In this document: piece after piece, positions 3,900 to 52,674 of the stretch
Numbering within the stretch: the first letter of the stretch is position 1
How the letters are laid out: the number at the start of each line of letters is the position of its first letter
Sequence record: MZ501075
DNA: 64,000 bases
Origin: Escherichia phage IrisVonRoten
Reading direction: 5' to 3' (one strand)
Program-made: the position numbers and the translations under genes
The notes under the pieces: generated by a model
Databases searched by the model: none
What the model saw: only the letters and a program-made list of their open reading frames with translations
Told to the model about the DNA's origin: nothing

Positions 3900-5774
3900 T
3901 TATTTAGCTCGAATATCCTGATGTTTCACCCTGCCCATAACCTCGTGCTGTTTGCCGGGGTTAAATGGACGAGCACCTGGATTTCCAAGATACCCACAAA
4001 CTCGACGAGTTACTTCAAGAGTTTCGGGGTCATGATTACCACAGATAGGGCACTTAAACCCATCTTCGGATGCTACTGTTTCACCTAAGAATCCACATTT
4101 ACCGCAAGAATCCACTGGAGTATTAATACCGAAGTAATGAACTTTACTAGCAGCATAATTAATAACCCATTCCAGTGCATCTGGGAATCGTTTCATATCT
4201 GGTAGTTCTACATAGGAAATACACCCACCAGAAGCAATAGGAGTAAAGTTAGATTCATAATCAAATTTCACGTTAGGAGCAACTTTACGTTCCACATCAA
4301 GGTGGTGAGAGTTGGTGTAGTATCCTTTGGACAGAATATCTTCATGCTCCGGGAAATATTCACGGTCTAGACGACAAAAGCGATCACATAGGGACTCTGA
4401 TGGTGTAGCATACAGGCTATAACCTAACTTAGTCTCTTCCTTCTTCTGATCGACCCTATCCCGCATGTACTGCAATACACGCTGAACAAACTTGATGCAG
4501 GTCTCAGACATTGTATCTACATCTTTGCCAAACATGAACTGTAGCATTTCATGGCAACCAATATACCCCAGAGATACAGAAGCACGGTTATAGAAATGAT
4601 CGAATACATATTCATCCGGCCCTAAGCGTAGTCCAAAGGCTCCTGACATATAGAGGATGGGTGCGGCTTTAGCTTGAATGTACTTTAAGCGATCAACTCT
4701 CCACTCCAATGCTTTTAACGCTGTATCCACACGTAGCTCGAGCAAATCAAAGAATAGATCAATATTCCCTTCAGCTTCGATAGCAATTCTAGGCAGGTTT
4801 ACAGAAACAACACCTAAGTTATTACGACCTGCAGTTTCACCATCTTCTGTAGCAGCCAGGAATGAACGGCAGCCCATAGAAACTTTATAGTCACCAGTAA
4901 CTTCCACAACCTTATCGTAGCTGATATAGTCGGGATACATACGTTCAGCAGTACATTTCATAGCTAACTTCTTGACGTCATAATTAACATCTCCTGGCTT
5001 CATATTTACGCCATCACGCAGAACAAACACCAGTTTCGGGAAGATAGCTGTACGTTTATTGATACCTAAACCATCCATGCGTACTTTCAGTATTGCTTTC
5101 TGTACTAGACGTGCTTCCCAAGAAGTTCCTAGACCAAAACCAAAGGTAATAAATGGACTCTGACCATTAGAGTTGAACATGGTATTGATTTCATATTCTA
5201 AACCCTGACAAGCGTCATAGACTTCTTTTTCAGTCATCTCCGTAGCCATTACGGATGCTTTGGCTTCATCCTTAGTCCAACGTTTTGCAAACGCATGATT
5301 TTTGTCATAGGATTTACGAACATAAGGGGCTAATACTTCATCAAGGCGATCTACAGAAGTACCACCATACTGATGGGAGCTAACCTGAGTGATAATCTGA
5401 GCAGTAATAGCCGCCGCAGTAGTGATAGAGTTTGGAGTGCTAATTTCAGCATTACCAACCTTCATACCATTCTTCAACATATCTTCCAAAGCTACCAGAC
5501 AACAGTTAGTCATACCTAATGCAGCATAATCAGCATCATGGAAATGAATATCTCCAATCATATGAGCATTTCGAATCTGAATTGGCATTTCTTCTAGAAT
5601 CAGATATTTACTTAACTCCCCTGCAAGCATATCCCTTTGTGTAGGGAAACGCTCAGAGGGTTTATTCGCATTATTAAAGAGAAGCTCTTCATCAGCAGAA
5701 CCCTCAATAATTTCTTTGCAGTTTCTAATCAAGGACTGCATTTCCTTGTATTTTAGTTCATCATTGCGATTCAT
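3900..5774 (-). CDS. nrdD: anaerobic ribonucleoside-triphosphate reductase (class III RNR)
   Basis: 624 aa; C-terminal Cys cluster CGKCGF...CPICG and glycyl-radical motif RRVCGYLG. Confidence 0.9.
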   Translation of the reverse strand: MNRNDELKYKEMQSLIRNCKEIIEGSADEELLFNNANKPSERFPTQRDMLAGELSKYLILEEMPIQIRNAHMIGDIHFHDADYAALGMTNCCLVALEDMLKNGMKVGNAEISTPNSITTAAAITAQIITQVSSHQYGGTSVDRLDEVLAPYVRKSYDKNHAFAKRWTKDEAKASVMATEMTEKEVYDACQGLEYEINTMFNSNGQSPFITFGFGLGTSWEARLVQKAILKVRMDGLGINKRTAIFPKLVFVLRDGVNMKPGDVNYDVKKLAMKCTAERMYPDYISYDKVVEVTGDYKVSMGCRSFLAATEDGETAGRNNLGVVSVNLPRIAIEAEGNIDLFFDLLELRVDTALKALEWRVDRLKYIQAKAAPILYMSGAFGLRLGPDEYVFDHFYNRASVSLGYIGCHEMLQFMFGKDVDTMSETCIKFVQRVLQYMRDRVDQKKEETKLGYSLYATPSESLCDRFCRLDREYFPEHEDILSKGYYTNSHHLDVERKVAPNVKFDYESNFTPIASGGCISYVELPDMKRFPDALEWVINYAASKVHYFGINTPVDSCGKCGFLGETVASEDGFKCPICGNHDPETLEVTRRVCGYLGNPGARPFNPGKQHEVMGRVKHQDIRAK

Positions 5775-5803: not shown

Positions 5804-5832
5804 ATTATAGCTTATTCAAGGGCAAATGTCAA
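5804..5832 (-). promoter_or_regulatory. consensus sigma70 promoter for nrdD (TTGACA-17-TATAAT on minus strand)
   Basis: Minus-strand reading ttgacatttgcccttgaataagctataat just upstream of nrdD start. Confidence 0.6.
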
Positions 5833-9678: not shown

Positions 9679-10824
9679 ATGACTACTTTACTAAACCTGA
9701 ATTGGGATCATACTAACGCTGATCTTTTCCTGGGCGATTCTCTAGGTATCGCAGATTATGTACGTGTAGCACATCCAGAACTAGAACGTCTGGCACTTCT
9801 GCAACGCTCTCAATTTTGGACTGAGACAGAAATCAGTTTAGAAGCTGATAAGAAACAATGGCCTAACCTCCCACGTGAAATTCAGGAAATTACACTTCTG
9901 AATTTAGCATGGCAGACTCAAACTGATTCCTTTATCAGTCGAGCGCCTGAAGCAGCTATTATGCCACTTGTAAGTCGTCCAGAACTAGAGGGTATGCTCA
10001 AGCAGTGGAGCTACTTTGAAGACCTGCATAGTCGTGCTTATAGTAATATTATTCGTAATGTGCTGACTGATCCAGCAGAATTTATTGATTCTGTAACTAA
10101 AAACCAAGAAGCATTTGCACGTATTGCAGATTCTGTTGAACTGTTCGATGAACTGTACCAGTTAGGTCAGTATTTCATCGCAGTACGTGATCATCGTGGT
10201 GACAATACATATCCAGAAACTGAGTTCCCTGAAGTTAAGCGTGAAACTCAGGCTAAACTGTTAGATGCTTATTTTGCAATCTACGGTCTGGAAGCAATGC
10301 AGTTCTACGCATCCTTTGCGTGTACTTTTGCTCTAGCAGAGAACGATATTCTGCAGGGTATTGCTAAAAATCTGCAATTAATCGCTAAAGATGAGGCTCT
10401 GCACACCCAGATGTCTAAAGCAATCATCCAGATTATGTTCCAGCAGTTTGACAAAGATCTGGTAGATGAAGCAGTGGCTAAAGCACCAGCACAGCTCCTG
10501 AAAACTCTGAAAACTGAAATTGAATGGGGTCATTTCATCTTCAAAGGTCGTAGTCTAATCGGTTTGAATGCAGAACTTCTAGAAGAATACTTGTACTTTG
10601 TGGGGCGTAATGCATTTATGCACATTGGTGTAGAATGGCCTAGTCACTTACCAGTAATCACTAAAAACCCTATTCCGTGGATCATGAACTGGTTGGATAC
10701 TACTTCTCTACAGCCTGCTCCACAAGAAATCCAGATTGGCGCAGCCTACCGTGTAGGTCAGGTAACTGAGACCTCTACTGATACTCTGAAAGATCTGGGC
10801 AATGAATTTGGAGATTTCCTATGA
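9679..10824 (+). CDS. nrdB: ribonucleoside-diphosphate reductase beta subunit (class I)
   Basis: 381 aa; di-iron ligand motifs DEALH and FYASFA..FALAE typical of R2. Confidence 0.9.
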   Translation: MTTLLNLNWDHTNADLFLGDSLGIADYVRVAHPELERLALLQRSQFWTETEISLEADKKQWPNLPREIQEITLLNLAWQTQTDSFISRAPEAAIMPLVSRPELEGMLKQWSYFEDLHSRAYSNIIRNVLTDPAEFIDSVTKNQEAFARIADSVELFDELYQLGQYFIAVRDHRGDNTYPETEFPEVKRETQAKLLDAYFAIYGLEAMQFYASFACTFALAENDILQGIAKNLQLIAKDEALHTQMSKAIIQIMFQQFDKDLVDEAVAKAPAQLLKTLKTEIEWGHFIFKGRSLIGLNAELLEEYLYFVGRNAFMHIGVEWPSHLPVITKNPIPWIMNWLDTTSLQPAPQEIQIGAAYRVGQVTETSTDTLKDLGNEFGDFL

Positions 10825-18603: not shown

Positions 18604-18826
18604 ATATTCATAAATTAGAGAACAGCGAGCCGATTACGCTGAGTGCAGAATCCCAACCGGAGCGCATTGAATAGAGTCGGTGGGTTAGTTGGAAAACTAG
18701 TACACAGGGGGCGGCAATCCCGGTTAGTGGCTAGAACGTGTAAAATGGGGCGTCTGAAACCTCTCCCCTAAACTCTTCTTTAATTTACTGATAGTGGGGT
18801 GTGGAAATCACTTATGTAGTAACACT

Positions 18827-18899
18827 GCCGATCTAGTATAAAACGGTATTATCAAGCCGTAACTGGTGGAAGATGTAGGTTCGAATCCTACGGTCGGTA
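18827..18899 (+). tRNA. tRNA-like gene; canonical acceptor and T-arm, anticodon arm unresolved
   Basis: Acceptor gccgatc/ggtcggt; T-arm gtagg-ttcgaat-cctac. Confidence 0.45.
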
Positions 18900-19401
18900 A
18901 GAACTGGATAACTGGTGCTTTTAATGTAAAAGCTTCCGAGGTTAGTTGCGCACTGCCTAAACCACGCGGTAGTTGGTTCCAGACTAACCAACCAGTCTGC
19001 TGAATAGTTTTATTACGATTTAACTATGTCCAGGCTAAAGAAGAACTTTAGAAGGTATTCTAGGATAGTGAAGTTCTTTCTCCATATCGGAGTAGTTTTT
19101 CAAACTATCCACAAAGTGGGAAATGCTGGCATGAGAGATGCCACTAATGGTGCACAATAGCACAGGTAATTCGCGATAACTCCTGTTGAGTAGCAGCAAA
19201 AAGGTGGGGAGTCATGACCCTAACCTAACCGAGTCCTCAGTATACCGCAGGACATAACCACTAAGTCACCTTGACTTAAACTGGAAAATAATAGACGTTA
19301 CTGTATTTTGTCTTGAAATACTTAATGAGTGAGACTTATGACTCTCCCGGTATCGTCTGTATTTTTAAGAGTTTTTACGAGAGTTCTTAAAAATACTTAA
19401 A

Positions 19402-49709: not shown

Positions 49710-50326
49710 TGACTTTATATACACAACAACCTATTCAAGTAGTACCAGACCATGAACTGAACACATGGGATTATAGCTTTAAAGATTTAACTGCTACTGT
49801 ACAATTCAAATCTATGAAGCTAACATTTGCACACACTGACCTTAGAGCATGTAAAGATCTTGAAGGTAAGCTCGAAGATGCTCGTAAGATTTTTGGCACG
49901 GCTCGCATCCCGGCTGATAACCTGATTAATGCACTGATCGATGCAGGATACAAACTCGTGAAGGCTGAGGTGAACCGCCCTAGTACTCCAGTGACTATTA
50001 GAGATCCGTGGCAGTCAGGGACAATCTCAATGCTGAATAACTCCGATAAAAGATTAATGTCGGATTTGCACAATGTTCCTTGTGGGGGTGTGGTAAGTAG
50101 TACGAAGTCATATAAGTTTGGTGAAGATTACGGCCCTTCTGTACAGTTGCAACATACTCAAGAAGCTTTTGAATCTGATATGCGAAGCGTAGCACCTGCG
50201 GATACTGAAGGTTTTAGAAGCCCCATCTATGTTACTCACTTTAATAATCTTAGACCTGGAGGTATAAATGATGCAATTATGGAAGCACTAGGGGCTGCTC
50301 TTAGCGAAGATAAGAGAGGTAGTTAA
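49709..50326 (+). CDS. hypothetical protein (205 aa)
   Basis: ORF track. Confidence 0.45.
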   Translation: MTLYTQQPIQVVPDHELNTWDYSFKDLTATVQFKSMKLTFAHTDLRACKDLEGKLEDARKIFGTARIPADNLINALIDAGYKLVKAEVNRPSTPVTIRDPWQSGTISMLNNSDKRLMSDLHNVPCGGVVSSTKSYKFGEDYGPSVQLQHTQEAFESDMRSVAPADTEGFRSPIYVTHFNNLRPGGINDAIMEALGAALSEDKRGS

Positions 50327-50814
50327 TGAAAGAAGCATTTAAATTTGCTAATATACTGTTTGAACCGACAGAGGATTCGTCGGTTTACTTTCTACAAATA
50401 ACCGATGGTTCTAATGTACGGCGTTATCTAACTGTACTAACTTTTGAAGCTATTAACCTTATTGAAGCTATCAGAAAAATCTCCTATGATTCAGAAGATG
50501 TCCAAACTATCGGATTCCTGAATTTCTTGAAAGAACAGAAATGTGCTGTGATCCCTATGAAAGAACATATTCCTATTGATAGTACGGGAATACTAGAGTC
50601 TTTCCCACTTACTAAATATACTCAATTACATTTGAAAGAGTATACTATATGTCTTGGGGAGGAAGAGTTTGAGGTTCCTAACCCAAGATTCTTATTTGAC
50701 CTAATAAAGAAAACAGCCAAAAATAAATCTGATGCAAAAGATATTATTAATAATATCTTGAGACGTGAAAAAAGATTAGCAGCAACAGCTAGTGGACAGG
50801 CGGATGATATATGA
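50326..50814 (+). CDS. hypothetical protein (162 aa)
   Basis: ORF track. Confidence 0.45.
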   Translation: MKEAFKFANILFEPTEDSSVYFLQITDGSNVRRYLTVLTFEAINLIEAIRKISYDSEDVQTIGFLNFLKEQKCAVIPMKEHIPIDSTGILESFPLTKYTQLHLKEYTICLGEEEFEVPNPRFLFDLIKKTAKNKSDAKDIINNILRREKRLAATASGQADDI

Positions 50815-51536
50815 GTATTAAAAAGAATTTAGCAGAGATTATTAAATTAGCTAGAGCTTGTAATGGAAAATGTGTTTCTCAGCTTAATGAACTAGAAGCA
50901 CATGCAGTAGCGTTTTGTGCAGAGTTTTATCCTGCATACCTTAATGCTAGTGGACAGCCCAAATATAATAAAGATGCAGAAGAAGTTACTTTAGCACCTT
51001 CTTATATTAGTTTACGTCGTTTAATTCAAACCGTTGATCCTACTATTAAAGGGTTCTCAGCAGATTCATTCCATGTCTTTGCGGATAAAGAACTCCCACA
51101 TTTTAAAGAAGGAAATGCAAAGGCTTGTCTAGAATGTTATCCTAATATTTTGATGGTTCCACCTAAGCAATGTAAGTATGATCATCTCCCTAGGCTCACT
51201 AAGAAAGTAGCACCACCTTATTCTTCTCTATCTGAATTAAAGCTAGGAATTGTATCTACACTTGCGCAGATTCATCTAAGTATAGTTGACGACTCAACAA
51301 CATCTAACCCTATTCTAGATGCTGCACATTATGAAATCTTACGTGATCCTGAGCAGGCTAGAAAAGTTGCGAAGTCTGTTAAGTTTGACATCTCAACAAT
51401 TCTTGATACGATGCAAGATACGAGACCTAGGGGAAGTGTAGATTATTCTGCGCTTAATTCTGAGTCATCTTACCTAGCAACATTCCTTTTCATGGCATCG
51501 AAGGGAATCATACTCAAAGTCAATCACGATGTATAA
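50811..51536 (+). CDS. hypothetical protein (241 aa)
   Basis: ORF track. Confidence 0.45.
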   Translation: MSIKKNLAEIIKLARACNGKCVSQLNELEAHAVAFCAEFYPAYLNASGQPKYNKDAEEVTLAPSYISLRRLIQTVDPTIKGFSADSFHVFADKELPHFKEGNAKACLECYPNILMVPPKQCKYDHLPRLTKKVAPPYSSLSELKLGIVSTLAQIHLSIVDDSTTSNPILDAAHYEILRDPEQARKVAKSVKFDISTILDTMQDTRPRGSVDYSALNSESSYLATFLFMASKGIILKVNHDV

Positions 51537-51553
51537 ACGTTAACGAAAAATTC

Positions 51554-51582
51554 TTGACATTATTTGAGCTGCATGTTATAAT
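51554..51582 (+). promoter_or_regulatory. perfect-consensus sigma70 promoter (TTGACA-17-TATAAT) with no downstream ORF
   Basis: ttgacattatttgagctgcatgttataat. Confidence 0.55.
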
Positions 51583-51936
51583 AATCTCATAGATTAAAAA
51601 CATCAACTTGTTTTTACCTCTAGGCCGTAGATTTACATCATTCCTCGTAGGAAAACACTTGATGACGGTTCTGTTCGCAGGTTCTCGTCAATTGTTCTTC
51701 CACACCGAGACTTAGGAGGATGTATCAAATCGCACGCGCCTAGAGGGGCTAACTCTCATGAAATGGGGGTATATTAACTTTTAAATAACTGATAAATATT
51801 TAAAGGCAATATCTGTGTTCAAGATGATACACTTGTTGCCGCTCATCTGCTAGGATGGCATAACACTTTCTTCTAGACTCCTAAGTTTCTAGGAAATTGA
51901 TAAGCACAAATTCTAGAGATCACATAAAAATATTCA

Positions 51937-52674
51937 TCGGATTTGCACATATTCTAGGGCAGTTTTCATGTTCCTAGAAACTCCAGCAATAGGCGGTTTA
52001 ATACAGGGCGGTTATAGGGAGGGCGGTTATTTCTAGGAGACATTTTTCGAAAACACATTTCTGGATTTTACTGTCGGATTTGCACATTGATATTCTAGAA
52101 ATTTATGGTCGGATTTGCACAAATGCCTAAGTTTTTAGGAACTCATACTCTCTTGAGAATAGCAGCATTATTTCGGGCCGAAGGCCCATGATTGCCTGAG
52201 TTTTTAGAGCCACAAGAATTTTCACTTGTCAAGCTATTTTGCCCCATTTTGCTAATAAAATTTTACTTTTTCTGCACCTATCTCAAATTTCCCCAAATTA
52301 TCTCAACTCTTCCCCAAAATCCCCGCAAATCAGGTGCTCCGCACCAATCCTGCGCCCCCACCATTCTAGCCCCCAAATTTCTCTCGCTCTCTCATCTTCT
52401 CCTCAAACCTATACAATCACACACCCTCCAATCGAAGTCACAAAAATCTTGTCGGATTCGCACATCTTAATCCTAGAAAAACCGTGTCGGATTTGCACAT
52501 ATCCCATAGGATTCGAACGCAGTTCGTGATTGCTGGAGTTTTTGGGAAAATTCGTCGTCGGATTCGCACATTACAAAAGTTTTTGGGGTCGGATTTGCAC
52601 ACTACCAAAAATTGTCGGATTCGCACATACATGCCCGCACGTAACACCCGTGGAGCAATGTCGGATTTGCACAA
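51937..52674. repeat. array of nine dispersed copies of a 14-bp motif GTCGGATT(T/C)GCACA
   Basis: Copies near 51937, 52073, 52108, 52451, 52486, 52557, 52588, 52614, 52660. Confidence 0.75.

What the first reader, a model, noticed from the sequence alone, without database searches (positions are those of the whole stretch)
51554..51800. Perfect-consensus promoter with no ORF downstream
An exact TTGACA-17-TATAAT promoter fires into a region without any ORF. The downstream sequence contains complementary segments (ctctaggc near 51619, gcctagag near 51741) suggesting a structured RNA. It could be a small RNA or a transcription-driven regulatory element at the repeat boundary.
Basis: seen in the sequence. 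Interest (0 to 1): 0.45.

Follow-up and report, generated by a model that had tools for sequence, protein, structure and literature searches.

The report
Conserved structured RNA gene in T5-like phages
The perfect promoter is real and most likely drives a previously unannotated, roughly 200-base folded non-coding RNA that every T5-like phage examined carries just outside its terminal repeat, where it would be the first gene to enter the cell when the second stage of DNA injection starts; its function is unknown.

Summary
The window is a T5-like phage (Demerecviridae), in the reverse of T5's standard orientation. In detail: TTGACA-17-TATAAT lies at 51554-51582, with a TG extension and an A-rich upstream tract. 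Two such sites occur in 64 kb against 0.02 expected. No conserved ORF follows on either strand.

There are at least 12 mutually diverged sequence types with one shared architecture:
- a 5' hairpin;
- a GC-rich helix closing a long irregular rod;
- a 3' hairpin with a near-invariant G-run;
- an A/U-rich tract.

Support for a sense-strand RNA:
- Compensatory changes: 18 of 50 pairs across types A-F, and 3 within the T5 type.
- 51 G·U pairs against 0 A·C appositions.

There is no Rfam match, no record annotation as RNA, and no mention in the searchable literature. The gene lies 618 bp outside the terminal repeat and points into the injection-stop region. Expression, the 3' end and function are untested. 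My best guess is a shape-dependent trans-acting RNA. A cis role in replication or packaging is the main rival.

The parts
51544..51553 (+). A-rich UP-like tract (CGAAAAATTC) just upstream of the -35
   Evidence: Read directly from the sequence. Related A-rich tracts (aacgaaaaattc, aacaaaatcttc, cgtaaaaattc) sit at the same place in most other types; T5 has caaactttcg, which is not clearly A-rich. An UP-element function is inferred, not tested.
51554..51559 (+). -35 hexamer TTGACA
51574..51582 (+). Extended -10, TGtTATAAT (hexamer 51577-51582)
   Evidence: The TG and hexamer are kept in all types (TATAAT, TATCAT, TAGAAT, TAAAAT), whereas the 17-bp spacer sequence varies between types. That is the pattern expected of a promoter under selection.
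51589..51589 (+). Predicted transcription start (an A, 7 nt after the -10)
   Evidence: Inferred from promoter geometry only; it has not been measured. The covariance-model match begins at exactly this base.
51589..51791 (+). Predicted non-coding RNA, about 180-205 nt; the 3' end is uncertain
   Evidence: The covariance model built from types B/D/E/F matches 51589-51791 full length at E = 1.4e-10, and this is the only hit in the 64 kb. The fold has z = -5.0. There is no Rfam match and no conserved ORF.
51595..51616 (+). P1, the 5' hairpin (TAAAAACA / TGTTTTTA, 8 bp, 6-nt loop)
   Evidence: In most other types a hairpin sits at the same distance from the start but with a different sequence: AAAACAA/UUGUUUU, ACAAUAA/UUAUUGU, CAACUA/UAGUUG, GUUAAU/AUUAAC, UACAUA/UAUGUA, AAACAACAU/AUGUUGUUU. 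Types H (AKFV33) and K2 lack a clear one. Three pairs show compensatory changes.
51617..51746 (+). Rod domain: a long irregular hairpin closed by P2 (CCTCTAGGC 51617-51625 with GCCTAGAGG 51738-51746); apical loop UUCG at about 51673
   Evidence: Every type has a GC-rich closing helix and a rod of about 40-65 bp. Compensatory pairs are counted. Within type A, variation clusters in the apical loop (UUCG, CUCG, UUUG, GUA).
51752..51770 (+). P4, the 3' hairpin (ACTCTCAT-GAA-ATGGGGGT) carrying the conserved G-run at 51765-51769
   Evidence: The motif WWRGGGG(G)AWC follows the rod in all 12 types. It is part of a canonical intrinsic terminator only in types B and H. In the window's type the U-tract is interrupted, so termination here is inferred and may be partial.
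51771..51812 (+). A/U-rich tract (86% A+T) after the G-run, including a small AU hairpin at 51780-51804
   Evidence: A comparable A/T-rich stretch follows the G-run in T5, HdH2, the Klebsiella phages and My1.
50811..51536 (+). Context: the last early ORF before the RNA gene (241 aa), ending 18 nt before the -35
   Evidence: It corresponds to Spc35_0016. The upstream ORF family differs between phages that share the same RNA type (L005 versus the window), so the RNA cassette assorts independently of it.
52207..52213 (.). Context: first bases of the terminal repeat (boundary TTTTTA|GAGCCAC at 52206|52207), 618 bp downstream of the predicted start
   Evidence: The annotated repeat ends of T5 (10219), Spc35 (9573) and SIA3lw (106626) all map to the same sequence.
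51937..52673 (+). Context: the injection-stop (iss) repeat region into which the promoter points. It holds nine TCGGATTTGCACA-type repeats, all in the + orientation and straddling the repeat boundary.
   Evidence: 12 matches in the window against 1.3 expected. T5 records annotate this as the iss and as direct repeat D.

Best explanation
This is a non-coding RNA gene conserved across T5-like phages.

Shown by sequence and comparison. A near-ideal sigma-70 promoter (A-rich tract, TTGACA, 17 bp, TG-extended TATAAT) is followed by a segment with no conserved ORF. The fold is kept through compensatory changes across at least 12 diverged sequence types in three lineages of Demerecviridae.

Inferred from position. 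The gene lies in unique DNA 618 bp beyond the left terminal repeat and is transcribed back towards it. The left repeat is the DNA that enters first. This gene is therefore the first transcription unit to enter when second-step transfer resumes, and host RNA polymerase should transcribe it at once and heavily.

Inferred mechanism, my best guess. The RNA acts in trans through its shape and its few conserved single-stranded motifs (the 5' AUAGAUUA and the 3' G-run), by binding or titrating a protein, or as a substrate or decoy for a double-strand-specific RNase. It does not appear to act by base-pairing with a target or by coding. The 5' hairpin would protect it from 5'-end-dependent decay.

My estimates: about 0.8 that it is an expressed, structure-constrained RNA, and about 0.35 that it works in trans on a protein.
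For: - Promoter. It matches 12/12 and is TG-extended, with 2 such sites in the window against 0.02 expected.
- Reach. The module is also present in Klebsiella Sugarlandvirus phages and in Pectobacterium phages My1 and DU_PP_V.
- Fold. Window z = -5.0. Ten types give z from -4.2 to -6.1, with one at -2.1. My1 gives -5.1 for the 157-nt segment and -4.4 for 133 nt; DU_PP_V gives -4.3. All share one architecture.
- Covariation within the T5 type. Using T5's own fold, 98.9% of cells are paired, 3 pairs are compensatory and 4 show wobble-preserving changes. Slid controls give 35-43% paired.
- Covariation across types. RNAalifold on B/D/E/F finds 13 of 50 pairs compensatory. Across A-F, 91.6% of cells are paired and 18 of 50 pairs are compensatory, a level reached by 1 of 500 shuffles; slid controls give 2-7 pairs.
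- Strand. The sense fold is more stable than the antisense fold in 11 of 12 types. Helices contain 51 G·U pairs and 0 A·C appositions.
- Model. The covariance model from B/D/E/F finds the window element at E = 1.4e-10, and it is the only hit in 64 kb.
- Not coding. No ORF is conserved on either strand.
- Position..
- Prevalence. 286 GenBank records match the window-type query and 147 match the T5-type query, against 446 records that match the wider region. This is only approximately exhaustive, because overlap between the two sets was not checked.
Against: - No transcript data were available. The start site, the 3' end and the abundance are all predictions.
- The window's type lacks a canonical intrinsic terminator. 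Only types B and H have one. The transcript may therefore run on into the injection-stop region, which would favour a cis role.
- The cross-type alignment was fitted to the model, which inflates the pair counts.
- The three compensatory pairs inside the T5 type all lie on one phylogenetic split.
- The covariance model does not reach significance on the T5, AKFV33, Klebsiella or My1 types: with filters off, T5, AKFV33 and My1 give E of 0.16-0.46 and the Klebsiella loci have no hit at the element. Their homology rests on position and architecture alone.
- The promoter's discriminator (AATCTC) lacks the ATATT element reported for known T5 early promoters (PMC7472727), so its temporal class is unknown.
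- Nothing identifies a binding partner.
Confidence: 0.6

Rival explanations
1. The element acts in cis through transcription. The promoter's job would be to send RNA polymerase, or an RNA that stays hybridised to the DNA, into the adjacent A/T-rich tract, iterons and DnaA-box region. This could prime or activate replication, as with ColE1 RNA II or the R-loop origins of phage T4. Alternatively it could prepare the terminal-repeat boundary for terminase cutting and packaging initiation, as proposed for transcription into the T7 concatemer junction. The folded 5' domain would then only shape or stabilise the nascent RNA.
For: - There is no canonical terminator in the window's type before 52835.
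- A G-run is followed by an 86% A+T tract.
- Nine same-orientation iterons straddle the repeat boundary 350-1080 bp downstream.
- The T5 literature notes the oriC-like clustering of DnaA boxes in this region (10.1101/866236).
- Because the left end is injected first, the right end is presumably packaged first. The repeat/unique junction 618 bp downstream would then be the packaging start in concatemers. This step is inference from general knowledge.
Against: - Types B and H end in strong canonical terminators at P4, which should stop read-through.
- Selection acts on the whole rod by compensatory change. That is more than a primer leader would obviously need, although ColE1 RNA II folding is also constrained.
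- No consistent complementarity was found between the 3' tail and downstream DNA across types.
- Published electron-microscopy mapping places the main T5 origins near the genome centre, as cited.
Confidence: 0.2
2. The RNA binds RNA polymerase in the manner of 6S RNA. An abundant rod-shaped RNA of about 190 nt would bind the host sigma-70 holoenzyme and help shift transcription from pre-early to early promoters. This is a special case of the trans-acting reading.
For: - Its length and rod shape resemble 6S RNA (184 nt in E. coli, from my own knowledge).
- It would be made exactly at the pre-early to early transition, judging by position.
- The mechanism of T5 class switching is stated to be unknown (PMC7472727, abstract).
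Against: - No match to any Rfam family, 6S included, even at E up to 10 in the window and E up to 5 in six other loci.
- None of the 12 predicted folds has the large central bubble that defines 6S RNA.
Confidence: 0.06
3. The element is the 3' end or an insulator of the upstream early operon. The long hairpin would stabilise or terminate the convergent early transcripts before they enter the injection-stop region, and the promoter would be secondary.
For: - The element begins 18 nt after the stop codon of the last early ORF.
- Stable 3' hairpins protect mRNAs (general knowledge).
Against: - T5 and both Klebsiella phages place a separate terminator-like hairpin between the ORF and the promoter. 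The operon therefore appears to end before the element.
- The promoter is the most conserved part of the module.
Confidence: 0.06
4. The element works at the DNA level. The inverted repeats would act as a cruciform, a protein-binding palindrome or a single-strand hairpin (for example a priming signal), and the promoter would be unrelated.
For: - The region borders a DNA segment dense in repeats and palindromes with known cis functions.
- The antisense strand also folds better than shuffles do.
Against: - Helices hold 51 G·U pairs and 0 A·C appositions.
- The sense fold is more stable in 11 of 12 types.
- Wobble-preserving substitutions occur. A double-stranded cruciform would treat G·T and A·C alike.
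- A promoter is always placed the same few bases upstream.
Confidence: 0.04
5. It is a small-protein or leader-peptide gene that the ORF scan missed.
For: - Several GenBank records call short CDSs here on one strand or the other.
- In types B, D, E and F an ORF runs from the AUG in the 3' motif into the conserved downstream block.
Against: - No ORF, frame, start or peptide is shared across types.
- The window has only a 35-aa TTG ORF without a ribosome-binding site, and 7-8-codon ATG ORFs.
- The substitution pattern is that of paired RNA, not of codons.
Confidence: 0.03

Closest known systems
phi29-family packaging RNA (pRNA; Rfam RF00044); the comparison is from my own knowledge
   Same: Both are phage RNAs of about 170-200 nt, transcribed by host polymerase from a strong early promoter. 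Both genes sit next to a genome end and point towards it. In both, relatives share the fold but little sequence.
   Different: There is no Rfam match. The predicted fold is a single rod plus two small hairpins, not the three-way junction with two interacting loops of pRNA. T5-like phages package DNA with a conventional terminase and are not known to need an RNA. A packaging role is untested here.
6S RNA (Rfam RF00013)
   Same: It has a similar length and a largely double-stranded rod, and is presumably abundant. Its timing would suit a role in reprogramming sigma-70 polymerase.
   Different: The Rfam model does not match, and none of the 12 types has a central open-promoter-like bubble.
Primer or activator transcripts at replication origins (ColE1 RNA II; phage T4 ori(uvsY) and ori(34) R-loops); from my own knowledge
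   Same: A promoter is followed by a folded RNA, a G-run, an A/T-rich unwinding-type tract, and then iterons and DnaA boxes.
   Different: No origin has been mapped here. Two types carry strong terminators before the A/T-rich tract. No conserved RNA-DNA complementarity beyond composition was found.
Stable small RNAs of T-phages with unknown function (the T5 and T4 'stable RNAs' encoded in the tRNA clusters); from my own knowledge of the older literature
   Same: They are also phage-encoded, non-coding, structured, and made by host polymerase.
   Different: Those map inside the tRNA region, which is 18.8-32.4 kb in this window. This element is 19 kb away, beside the terminal repeat, and has its own promoter. 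It is not annotated in any of the three T5 records examined.
T5 injection-stop signal / Repeat Region 3 (Heusterspreute 1987; Wang 2005; Davison 2020, 10.1101/866236)
   Same: It is the immediate neighbour. The promoter fires into it, and both are conserved across T5-like phages.
   Different: Repeat Region 3 ends at T5 10409 in AY587007 numbering. The RNA gene lies beyond it, at about 10570-10765 in the same numbering. It is hypervariable in sequence rather than conserved, and the Davison paper mentions neither a promoter nor a transcript.

Membership tests
Sigma-70 promoter | -35 and -10 hexamers close to consensus with 16-18 bp spacing | tested here: met
   The match is 12/12 with a 17-bp spacer, a TG extension and an A-rich upstream tract.
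Sigma-70 promoter | Functional elements conserved in relatives while non-functional positions drift | tested here: met
   The hexamers, TG and spacing are kept in all 69 extracted loci and in My1 and DU_PP_V, while the spacer sequence differs between types.
Sigma-70 promoter | Transcription initiates in vivo or in vitro | not testable with these tools
   No transcript data are held. The literature searched does not cover this site.
Structured non-coding RNA (generic) | The fold is more stable than composition predicts | tested here: met
   Window z = -5.0. Eleven other types give -4.2 to -6.1, with one at -2.1.
Structured non-coding RNA (generic) | Base pairs are maintained by compensatory substitutions | tested here: met
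   3, 13 and 18 pairs changed on both sides. Slid and shuffled controls are far lower. Two caveats apply: one alignment was fitted to the model, and the three T5-type events share one branch.
Structured non-coding RNA (generic) | Strand specificity (G·U tolerated, A·C not) | tested here: met
   There are 51 G·U pairs against 0 A·C appositions in helices. The sense strand is more stable in 11 of 12 types.
Structured non-coding RNA (generic) | No conserved reading frame | tested here: met
Any Rfam 15 family | Covariance-model match at or near the gathering score | tested here: not met
   Nothing within 51589-51800 at E up to 10. Nothing credible at the orthologous segment in six other loci at E up to 5; the one overlapping hit is an implausible Plasmodium RUF6-5 match in HdH2 at 22.8 bits against a gathering score of 70.
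6S RNA | A large central bubble flanked by helices, and a match to RF00013 | tested here: not met
   There is no Rfam hit. No such bubble appears in any predicted fold. Binding to holoenzyme cannot be tested here.
phi29-type pRNA | A three-way junction with complementary left and right loops, a match to RF00044, and a requirement for packaging | tested here: not met
   There is no Rfam hit and the fold is a single rod. A packaging requirement cannot be tested here.
Intrinsically terminated sRNA (Hfq-type) | A GC-rich 3' hairpin followed directly by a run of U | tested here: inconclusive
   This is met in types B and H. In the window's type the P4 hairpin has three G-C and three G·U pairs and an interrupted U-tract, and it is not called by the scan.
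Cis-antisense or base-pairing regulator | Extended complementarity to a gene on the opposite strand or elsewhere in the phage | tested here: not met
   There is no opposite-strand gene. The best match in the 64-kb window is 13 nt at E = 0.16. No consistent downstream site was found across types. Only this window and not the whole genome was searched for window-internal targets. E. coli genomes gave no blastn similarity at E up to 1, a test for a host homologue or extended complementarity that would miss short seed pairings.
Origin primer / R-loop transcript | The transcript remains hybridised and is used as a primer at a mapped origin | not testable with these tools
   Only the sequence ingredients are seen: a G-run, an A/T-rich tract, iterons, and DnaA boxes reported by others.

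The most novel reading that the evidence does not exclude
The RNA is a working part of what makes T5 unusual. It would be either the signal that second-step transfer has begun, switching host polymerase or nucleases from the pre-early to the early programme. Or it would be an RNA cofactor or cis transcript needed to define and process the terminal-repeat boundary during replication and packaging. The discrete, hypervariable rod 'alleles' would then be specificity determinants matched to a phage protein.
Probability: 0.12. Interest if true: 0.85.

Novelty: new variant of a known kind. Interest (0 to 1): 0.62.

Why it matters
T5 has been a model phage for seventy years. How DNA transfer stops and restarts, how the phage switches between transcription classes, and how its DNA escapes restriction after the second step are all still open questions.

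A strongly promoted, structure-constrained RNA would be a new and directly testable player at that transition. It is conserved across Markadamsvirinae, Sugarlandvirus and Mccorquodalevirinae. It is placed as the first gene to enter at second-step transfer and is aimed at the injection-stop and packaging-boundary region.

It would also add a phage RNA family that is absent from Rfam, and it would correct hundreds of genome records that call spurious short CDSs here. The mosaic pattern, a conserved promoter and flanks around at least 12 fold-preserving sequence cassettes, is also unusual among phage RNAs.

Tried and rejected
- Rfam scans of the window region and six orthologous loci gave nothing credible at the element.
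- A search for an antisense target or a paralogue in the window by short-word BLAST found a best match of 13 nt at E = 0.16 and no second copy. The covariance model also finds only one copy.
- I saw an 8-9-nt complementarity between the 3' G-run motif and C-rich motifs just inside the terminal repeat (AAAUGGGG with CCCCATTT; in T5, GGGGGCAAA with TTTGCCCCC). I tested it across 10 types with duplex folding. The best sites differ in position and strand between types, and the energies are no better on the + strand than on the minus strand. I reject it as a composition effect.
- A host mimic was sought, but E. coli genomes show no similarity.
- A conserved small ORF is rejected.
- 6S-like and pRNA-like membership fails on Rfam and on fold shape.
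- An operator palindrome over the -10 and start site (TAATCTCATAGATTA) looked promising. It is compensated in T5 (TAACTCTATGAGTTA), but it is not kept in AKFV33 or in one Klebsiella type, so I do not count it as part of the element.
- Retron-msr resemblance (UAGCG motifs near the apex in T5, one Klebsiella type and type E) rests on a short motif recalled from memory. It lies in the wrong part of the fold, and the annotated neighbouring genes include no reverse transcriptase. I did not pursue it.
- Literature searches for a T5 small RNA, for promoter maps of this site, or for escape mutations here found nothing relevant. Pre-1990 T5 transcription-mapping papers are not in the searchable library, so an old report of a polymerase-binding site near 8.9% of the genome cannot be excluded.
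- A tblastn search with the neighbouring conserved protein reached only Markadamsvirinae. More distant members were found by synteny instead. Vibrio phage pVp-1 could not be assessed because its record has no annotated repeat.
Full report
**What the window is**

The 1.7 kb around the finding matches 446 phage records, almost all T5-like Salmonella and Escherichia phages. The window carries 25 tRNA genes at 18.8-32.4 kb.

Annotated relatives show that the window runs opposite to the standard T5 orientation:
- + strand ORFs up to 51536 are the last early genes. The ORF at 50811-51536 corresponds to Spc35_0016.
- The repeat-rich stretch from about 51900 is the injection-stop signal (iss) region.
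- Everything from 52207 rightwards is the left terminal repeat, the first-step-transfer DNA.

The repeat boundary in T5, Spc35 and SIA3lw falls at one sequence, TTTTTA|GAGCCAC. In the window this is 52206|52207.

**The observation**

The promoter is exactly as described: TTGACA at 51554-51559, a 17-bp spacer, and TATAAT at 51577-51582. It also has a TG extension and an A-rich tract upstream.

The exact pattern occurs twice in 64 kb, against 0.02 expected. The other copy, at 5832-5804 on the minus strand, sits in front of a normal 624-aa gene with a ribosome-binding site. Perfect promoters are therefore part of this phage's repertoire. What is unusual here is the lack of a gene.

Downstream there is only a 35-aa TTG ORF without a ribosome-binding site. 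They close the minimum-free-energy fold of 51589-51830, which is -72.6 kcal/mol with z = -5.0.

**Relatives**

I collected the orthologous interval from several sources:
- IMG/VR and metagenome contigs, by exact-pattern scans;
- a scan with the neighbouring protein;
- GenBank records.

All 69 loci then held, counting the window itself, contain a promoter at the same place followed by an ORF-less segment. The -35, the TG and the -10 are kept. The spacing is kept too, but the spacer sequence differs between lineages. That is the signature of a promoter under selection.

The transcribed segment falls into discrete sequence types:
- A: the window, Spc35, SIA3lw, H8
- B: HdH2
- C, D, E, F
- G: T5 and many Epseptimavirus phages
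- H: AKFV33
- K1 and K2: Klebsiella Sugarlandvirus phages

BLAST aligns only the promoter end and the 3' end between types. The middle is replaced (two-piece hits).

The same module turned up by synteny in Pectobacterium phages of another subfamily:
- My1 (Myunavirus) has TTGACA-17-TGtTAAAAT about 745 bp outside its annotated left repeat.
- DU_PP_V belongs to Hongcheonvirus.

In GenBank, 286 records match the window-type query and 147 match the T5-type query. Together these account for about all T5-like records, although overlap between the two sets was not checked.

**One architecture, many sequences**

Folded alone, each type gives the same plan:
- a short 5' hairpin starting 7-10 nt from the predicted start (not evident in AKFV33 and unclear in K2);
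- a GC-rich closing helix;
- a long irregular rod of about 40-65 bp;
- a short 3' hairpin or single-stranded stretch carrying a G-run (WWRGGGG(G)AWC);
- an A/T-rich tract.

Stability against dinucleotide shuffles:

| Types | z-score |
|---|---|
| Nine of the first ten types | -4.2 to -6.1 |
| K1 | -2.1 |
| My1 | -5.1 (157 nt); -4.4 (133 nt) |
| DU_PP_V | -4.3 |

**Covariation**

I tested three alignments.

| Alignment | Cells paired | Compensatory pairs | Controls |
|---|---|---|---|
| Nine distinct T5-type sequences, structure from T5 alone | 98.9% | 3, plus 4 wobble-preserving one-sided changes | Partner slid 1-3 columns: 35-43% paired |
| MAFFT alignment of types B/D/E/F, RNAalifold | not given | 13 of 50, including 3 in the 5' hairpin | none |
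| 19 distinct sequences of types A-F, aligned to the covariance model | 91.6% | 18 of 50 | 1 of 500 shuffles reached 18; slid controls 2-7 pairs and 39-50% paired |

In the first alignment the variable positions lie mostly in loops or in the changed pairs.

A covariance model built from the B/D/E/F alignment finds the window element full length at E = 1.4e-10, and type C at 7e-6. It finds no second copy in the window.

Caveats:
- The third alignment is fitted to the model.
- The three T5-type events lie on one branch.
- The model does not reach significance on types G, H, K and My1.

**Which strand folds**

The sense strand folds more stably than its complement in 11 of 12 types. Helices of the 12 sense folds contain 51 G·U pairs and no A·C apposition, which would be G·U on the other strand. 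A cruciform in duplex DNA would not show this asymmetry. The folded molecule is therefore the strand transcribed from the promoter.

**What it is not**

- It matches no Rfam 15 family at lenient thresholds, in the window or in six other loci.
- It shares no ORF between types.
- It has no extended complement elsewhere in the window.
- It has no similarity in E. coli genomes.
- A tempting complementarity between the G-run and C-rich motifs just inside the repeat did not hold up across types.
- None of the three T5 records annotates anything here. Other records call short CDSs on either strand or leave it blank. HdH2 annotates only a terminator.
- Davison's detailed comparison of the region stops at T5 10409 (AY587007 numbering) and never mentions a promoter or transcript.
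- Searches for T5 small RNAs, promoter maps or escape mutations at this site found nothing. Older transcription-mapping papers are not searchable here.

**The 3' end**

Types B and H end in canonical intrinsic terminators formed by the G-run hairpin. In the window's type the hairpin ACUCUCAU-GAA-AUGGGGGU is followed by AUAUUAACUUUU. This is a weak terminator at best, and the scan calls nothing on the + strand before 52835.

Some read-through into the iss region is therefore possible. A read-through RNA would meet a strikingly C-rich, G-poor stretch just inside the repeat, with GC skew down to -0.75 at 52250-52450. That stretch resembles a Rho loading site.

**How it most likely works**

Shown:
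- a conserved promoter;
- a conserved sense-strand fold;
- no coding capacity;
- a fixed position.

Inferred from position: the left repeat enters first and transfer pauses in the iss region (annotations; abstract). This gene, 0.4-0.65 kb beyond the repeat, is therefore the first transcription unit to enter when transfer resumes. Its near-ideal promoter should be used immediately.

The sequence of the rod is free to change as long as it stays paired, and only short single-stranded motifs are conserved. I therefore favour an RNA that acts through shape. It would bind or titrate a protein, or serve as a substrate or decoy for a double-strand-specific RNase. The 5' hairpin would stabilise it.

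My estimates are about 0.8 that it is an expressed, structure-constrained RNA and about 0.35 for this specific mode of action.

The main rival, at about 0.2, is a cis role. Transcription or a persistent hybrid would run into the A/T-rich tract, the iterons (nine same-orientation TCGGATTTGCACA copies) and the DnaA boxes. Its purpose would be replication or processing of the repeat boundary.

Minor rivals:
- a 6S-like polymerase binder;
- a 3' stabiliser of the upstream operon, disfavoured because T5 and the Klebsiella phages have a separate terminator-like hairpin before the promoter;
- a DNA-level palindrome;
- a missed peptide gene.

The promoter's discriminator lacks the ATATT element of known T5 early promoters. 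Its timing class cannot be read from the sequence.

**Comparison with known systems**

In functional style the closest analogue is the phi29 pRNA. It has a similar size, a host promoter and a terminal location pointing at the end, and its fold is conserved while its sequence diverges. Membership fails on both Rfam and fold shape, and no packaging role is known.

6S RNA also fails on Rfam and on the missing central bubble. ColE1 RNA II and the T4 R-loop origins share the sequence ingredients, but nothing could be tested. The known T5 'stable RNAs' lie in the tRNA cluster, not here.

**Verdict**

The element appears to be an undescribed, family-wide phage RNA gene of unknown function in a biologically loaded position. 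Experimental confirmation of the transcript is the missing step.

Noticed in passing
window 52230-52450 (just inside the terminal repeat, which starts at 52207): A block of about 200 bp is extremely C-rich and G-poor on the + strand, with GC skew down to -0.75 and repeated CCCCA(A/T)(A/T)(A/T) motifs. On a read-through transcript from the promoter it would resemble a Rho loading site. On the mature genome it makes the inner end of both repeats, and so the far right end of the genome, strongly strand-asymmetric.
   Followed up: partly
window 52175-52187: A perfect GGGCCGAAGGCCC hairpin lies 20 bp before the terminal-repeat boundary. It is conserved at the same place in T5, Spc35, SIA3lw and HdH2. 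It could mark the terminase cut or the repeat end.
   Followed up: no
window 51937-52673 (plus one copy at 50060-50072 inside an ORF): Nine TCGGATTTGCACA or TCGGATTCGCACA repeats all lie in the + orientation. Three are on the unique side of the repeat boundary and six are inside the repeat. The window has 12 matches against 1.3 expected. The same repeat, together with GGGCGGTT motifs, recurs in Pectobacterium phages My1 and DU_PP_V, so it is conserved across subfamilies.
   Followed up: partly
window 51802-51900: The block AAAGGCAATATCTGTGTTCAAGATGATACACYTGTTGCCGCT... is nearly invariant among Escherichia and Salmonella T5-like phages, even where the adjacent RNA cassette is completely different. 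It lies beyond the right-hand limit of the published Repeat Region 3. In types B, D, E and F an ORF starting in the RNA's 3' motif reads through it (...FKGNICVQDDTPVAAHLLGWHNTFF), but not in types A, C, G or H.
   Followed up: partly
window 51582-51596: The palindrome TAATCTCATAGATTA spans the end of the -10 and the predicted start site. T5 has TAACTCTATGAGTTA, with both arms changed in a compensating way. AKFV33 and one Klebsiella phage do not keep the symmetry. It could be an operator in some lineages, or it could be chance.
   Followed up: partly
window 5804-5832 (minus strand): This is the only other exact TTGACA-17-TATAAT in the window. It lies 30 nt upstream of a 624-aa ORF (3900-5774, minus strand) with a GAAGGAG ribosome-binding site.
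   Followed up: partly
window 18826-18900: ARAGORN calls a tRNA-Ser with anticodon ACT, placed at the unusual position 37. It may be a variant, a suppressor-like tRNA or a mis-called tRNA within the 25-gene tRNA cluster.
   Followed up: no
L076 (Pectobacterium phage DU_PP_V) about 715-815: In place of the TCGGATTTGCACA iterons, this phage has about four tandem copies of a roughly 29-bp unit (ctatcaatgtccttttcaactatatact) in the equivalent region downstream of its RNA module.
   Followed up: no
GenBank records OR847759, OR849063 (hits H34 and H79): Short records of 1.7-2.6 kb labelled 'Listeria phage' are 80-97% identical to this T5-like region. They are probably contaminant or mislabelled contigs.
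   Followed up: no
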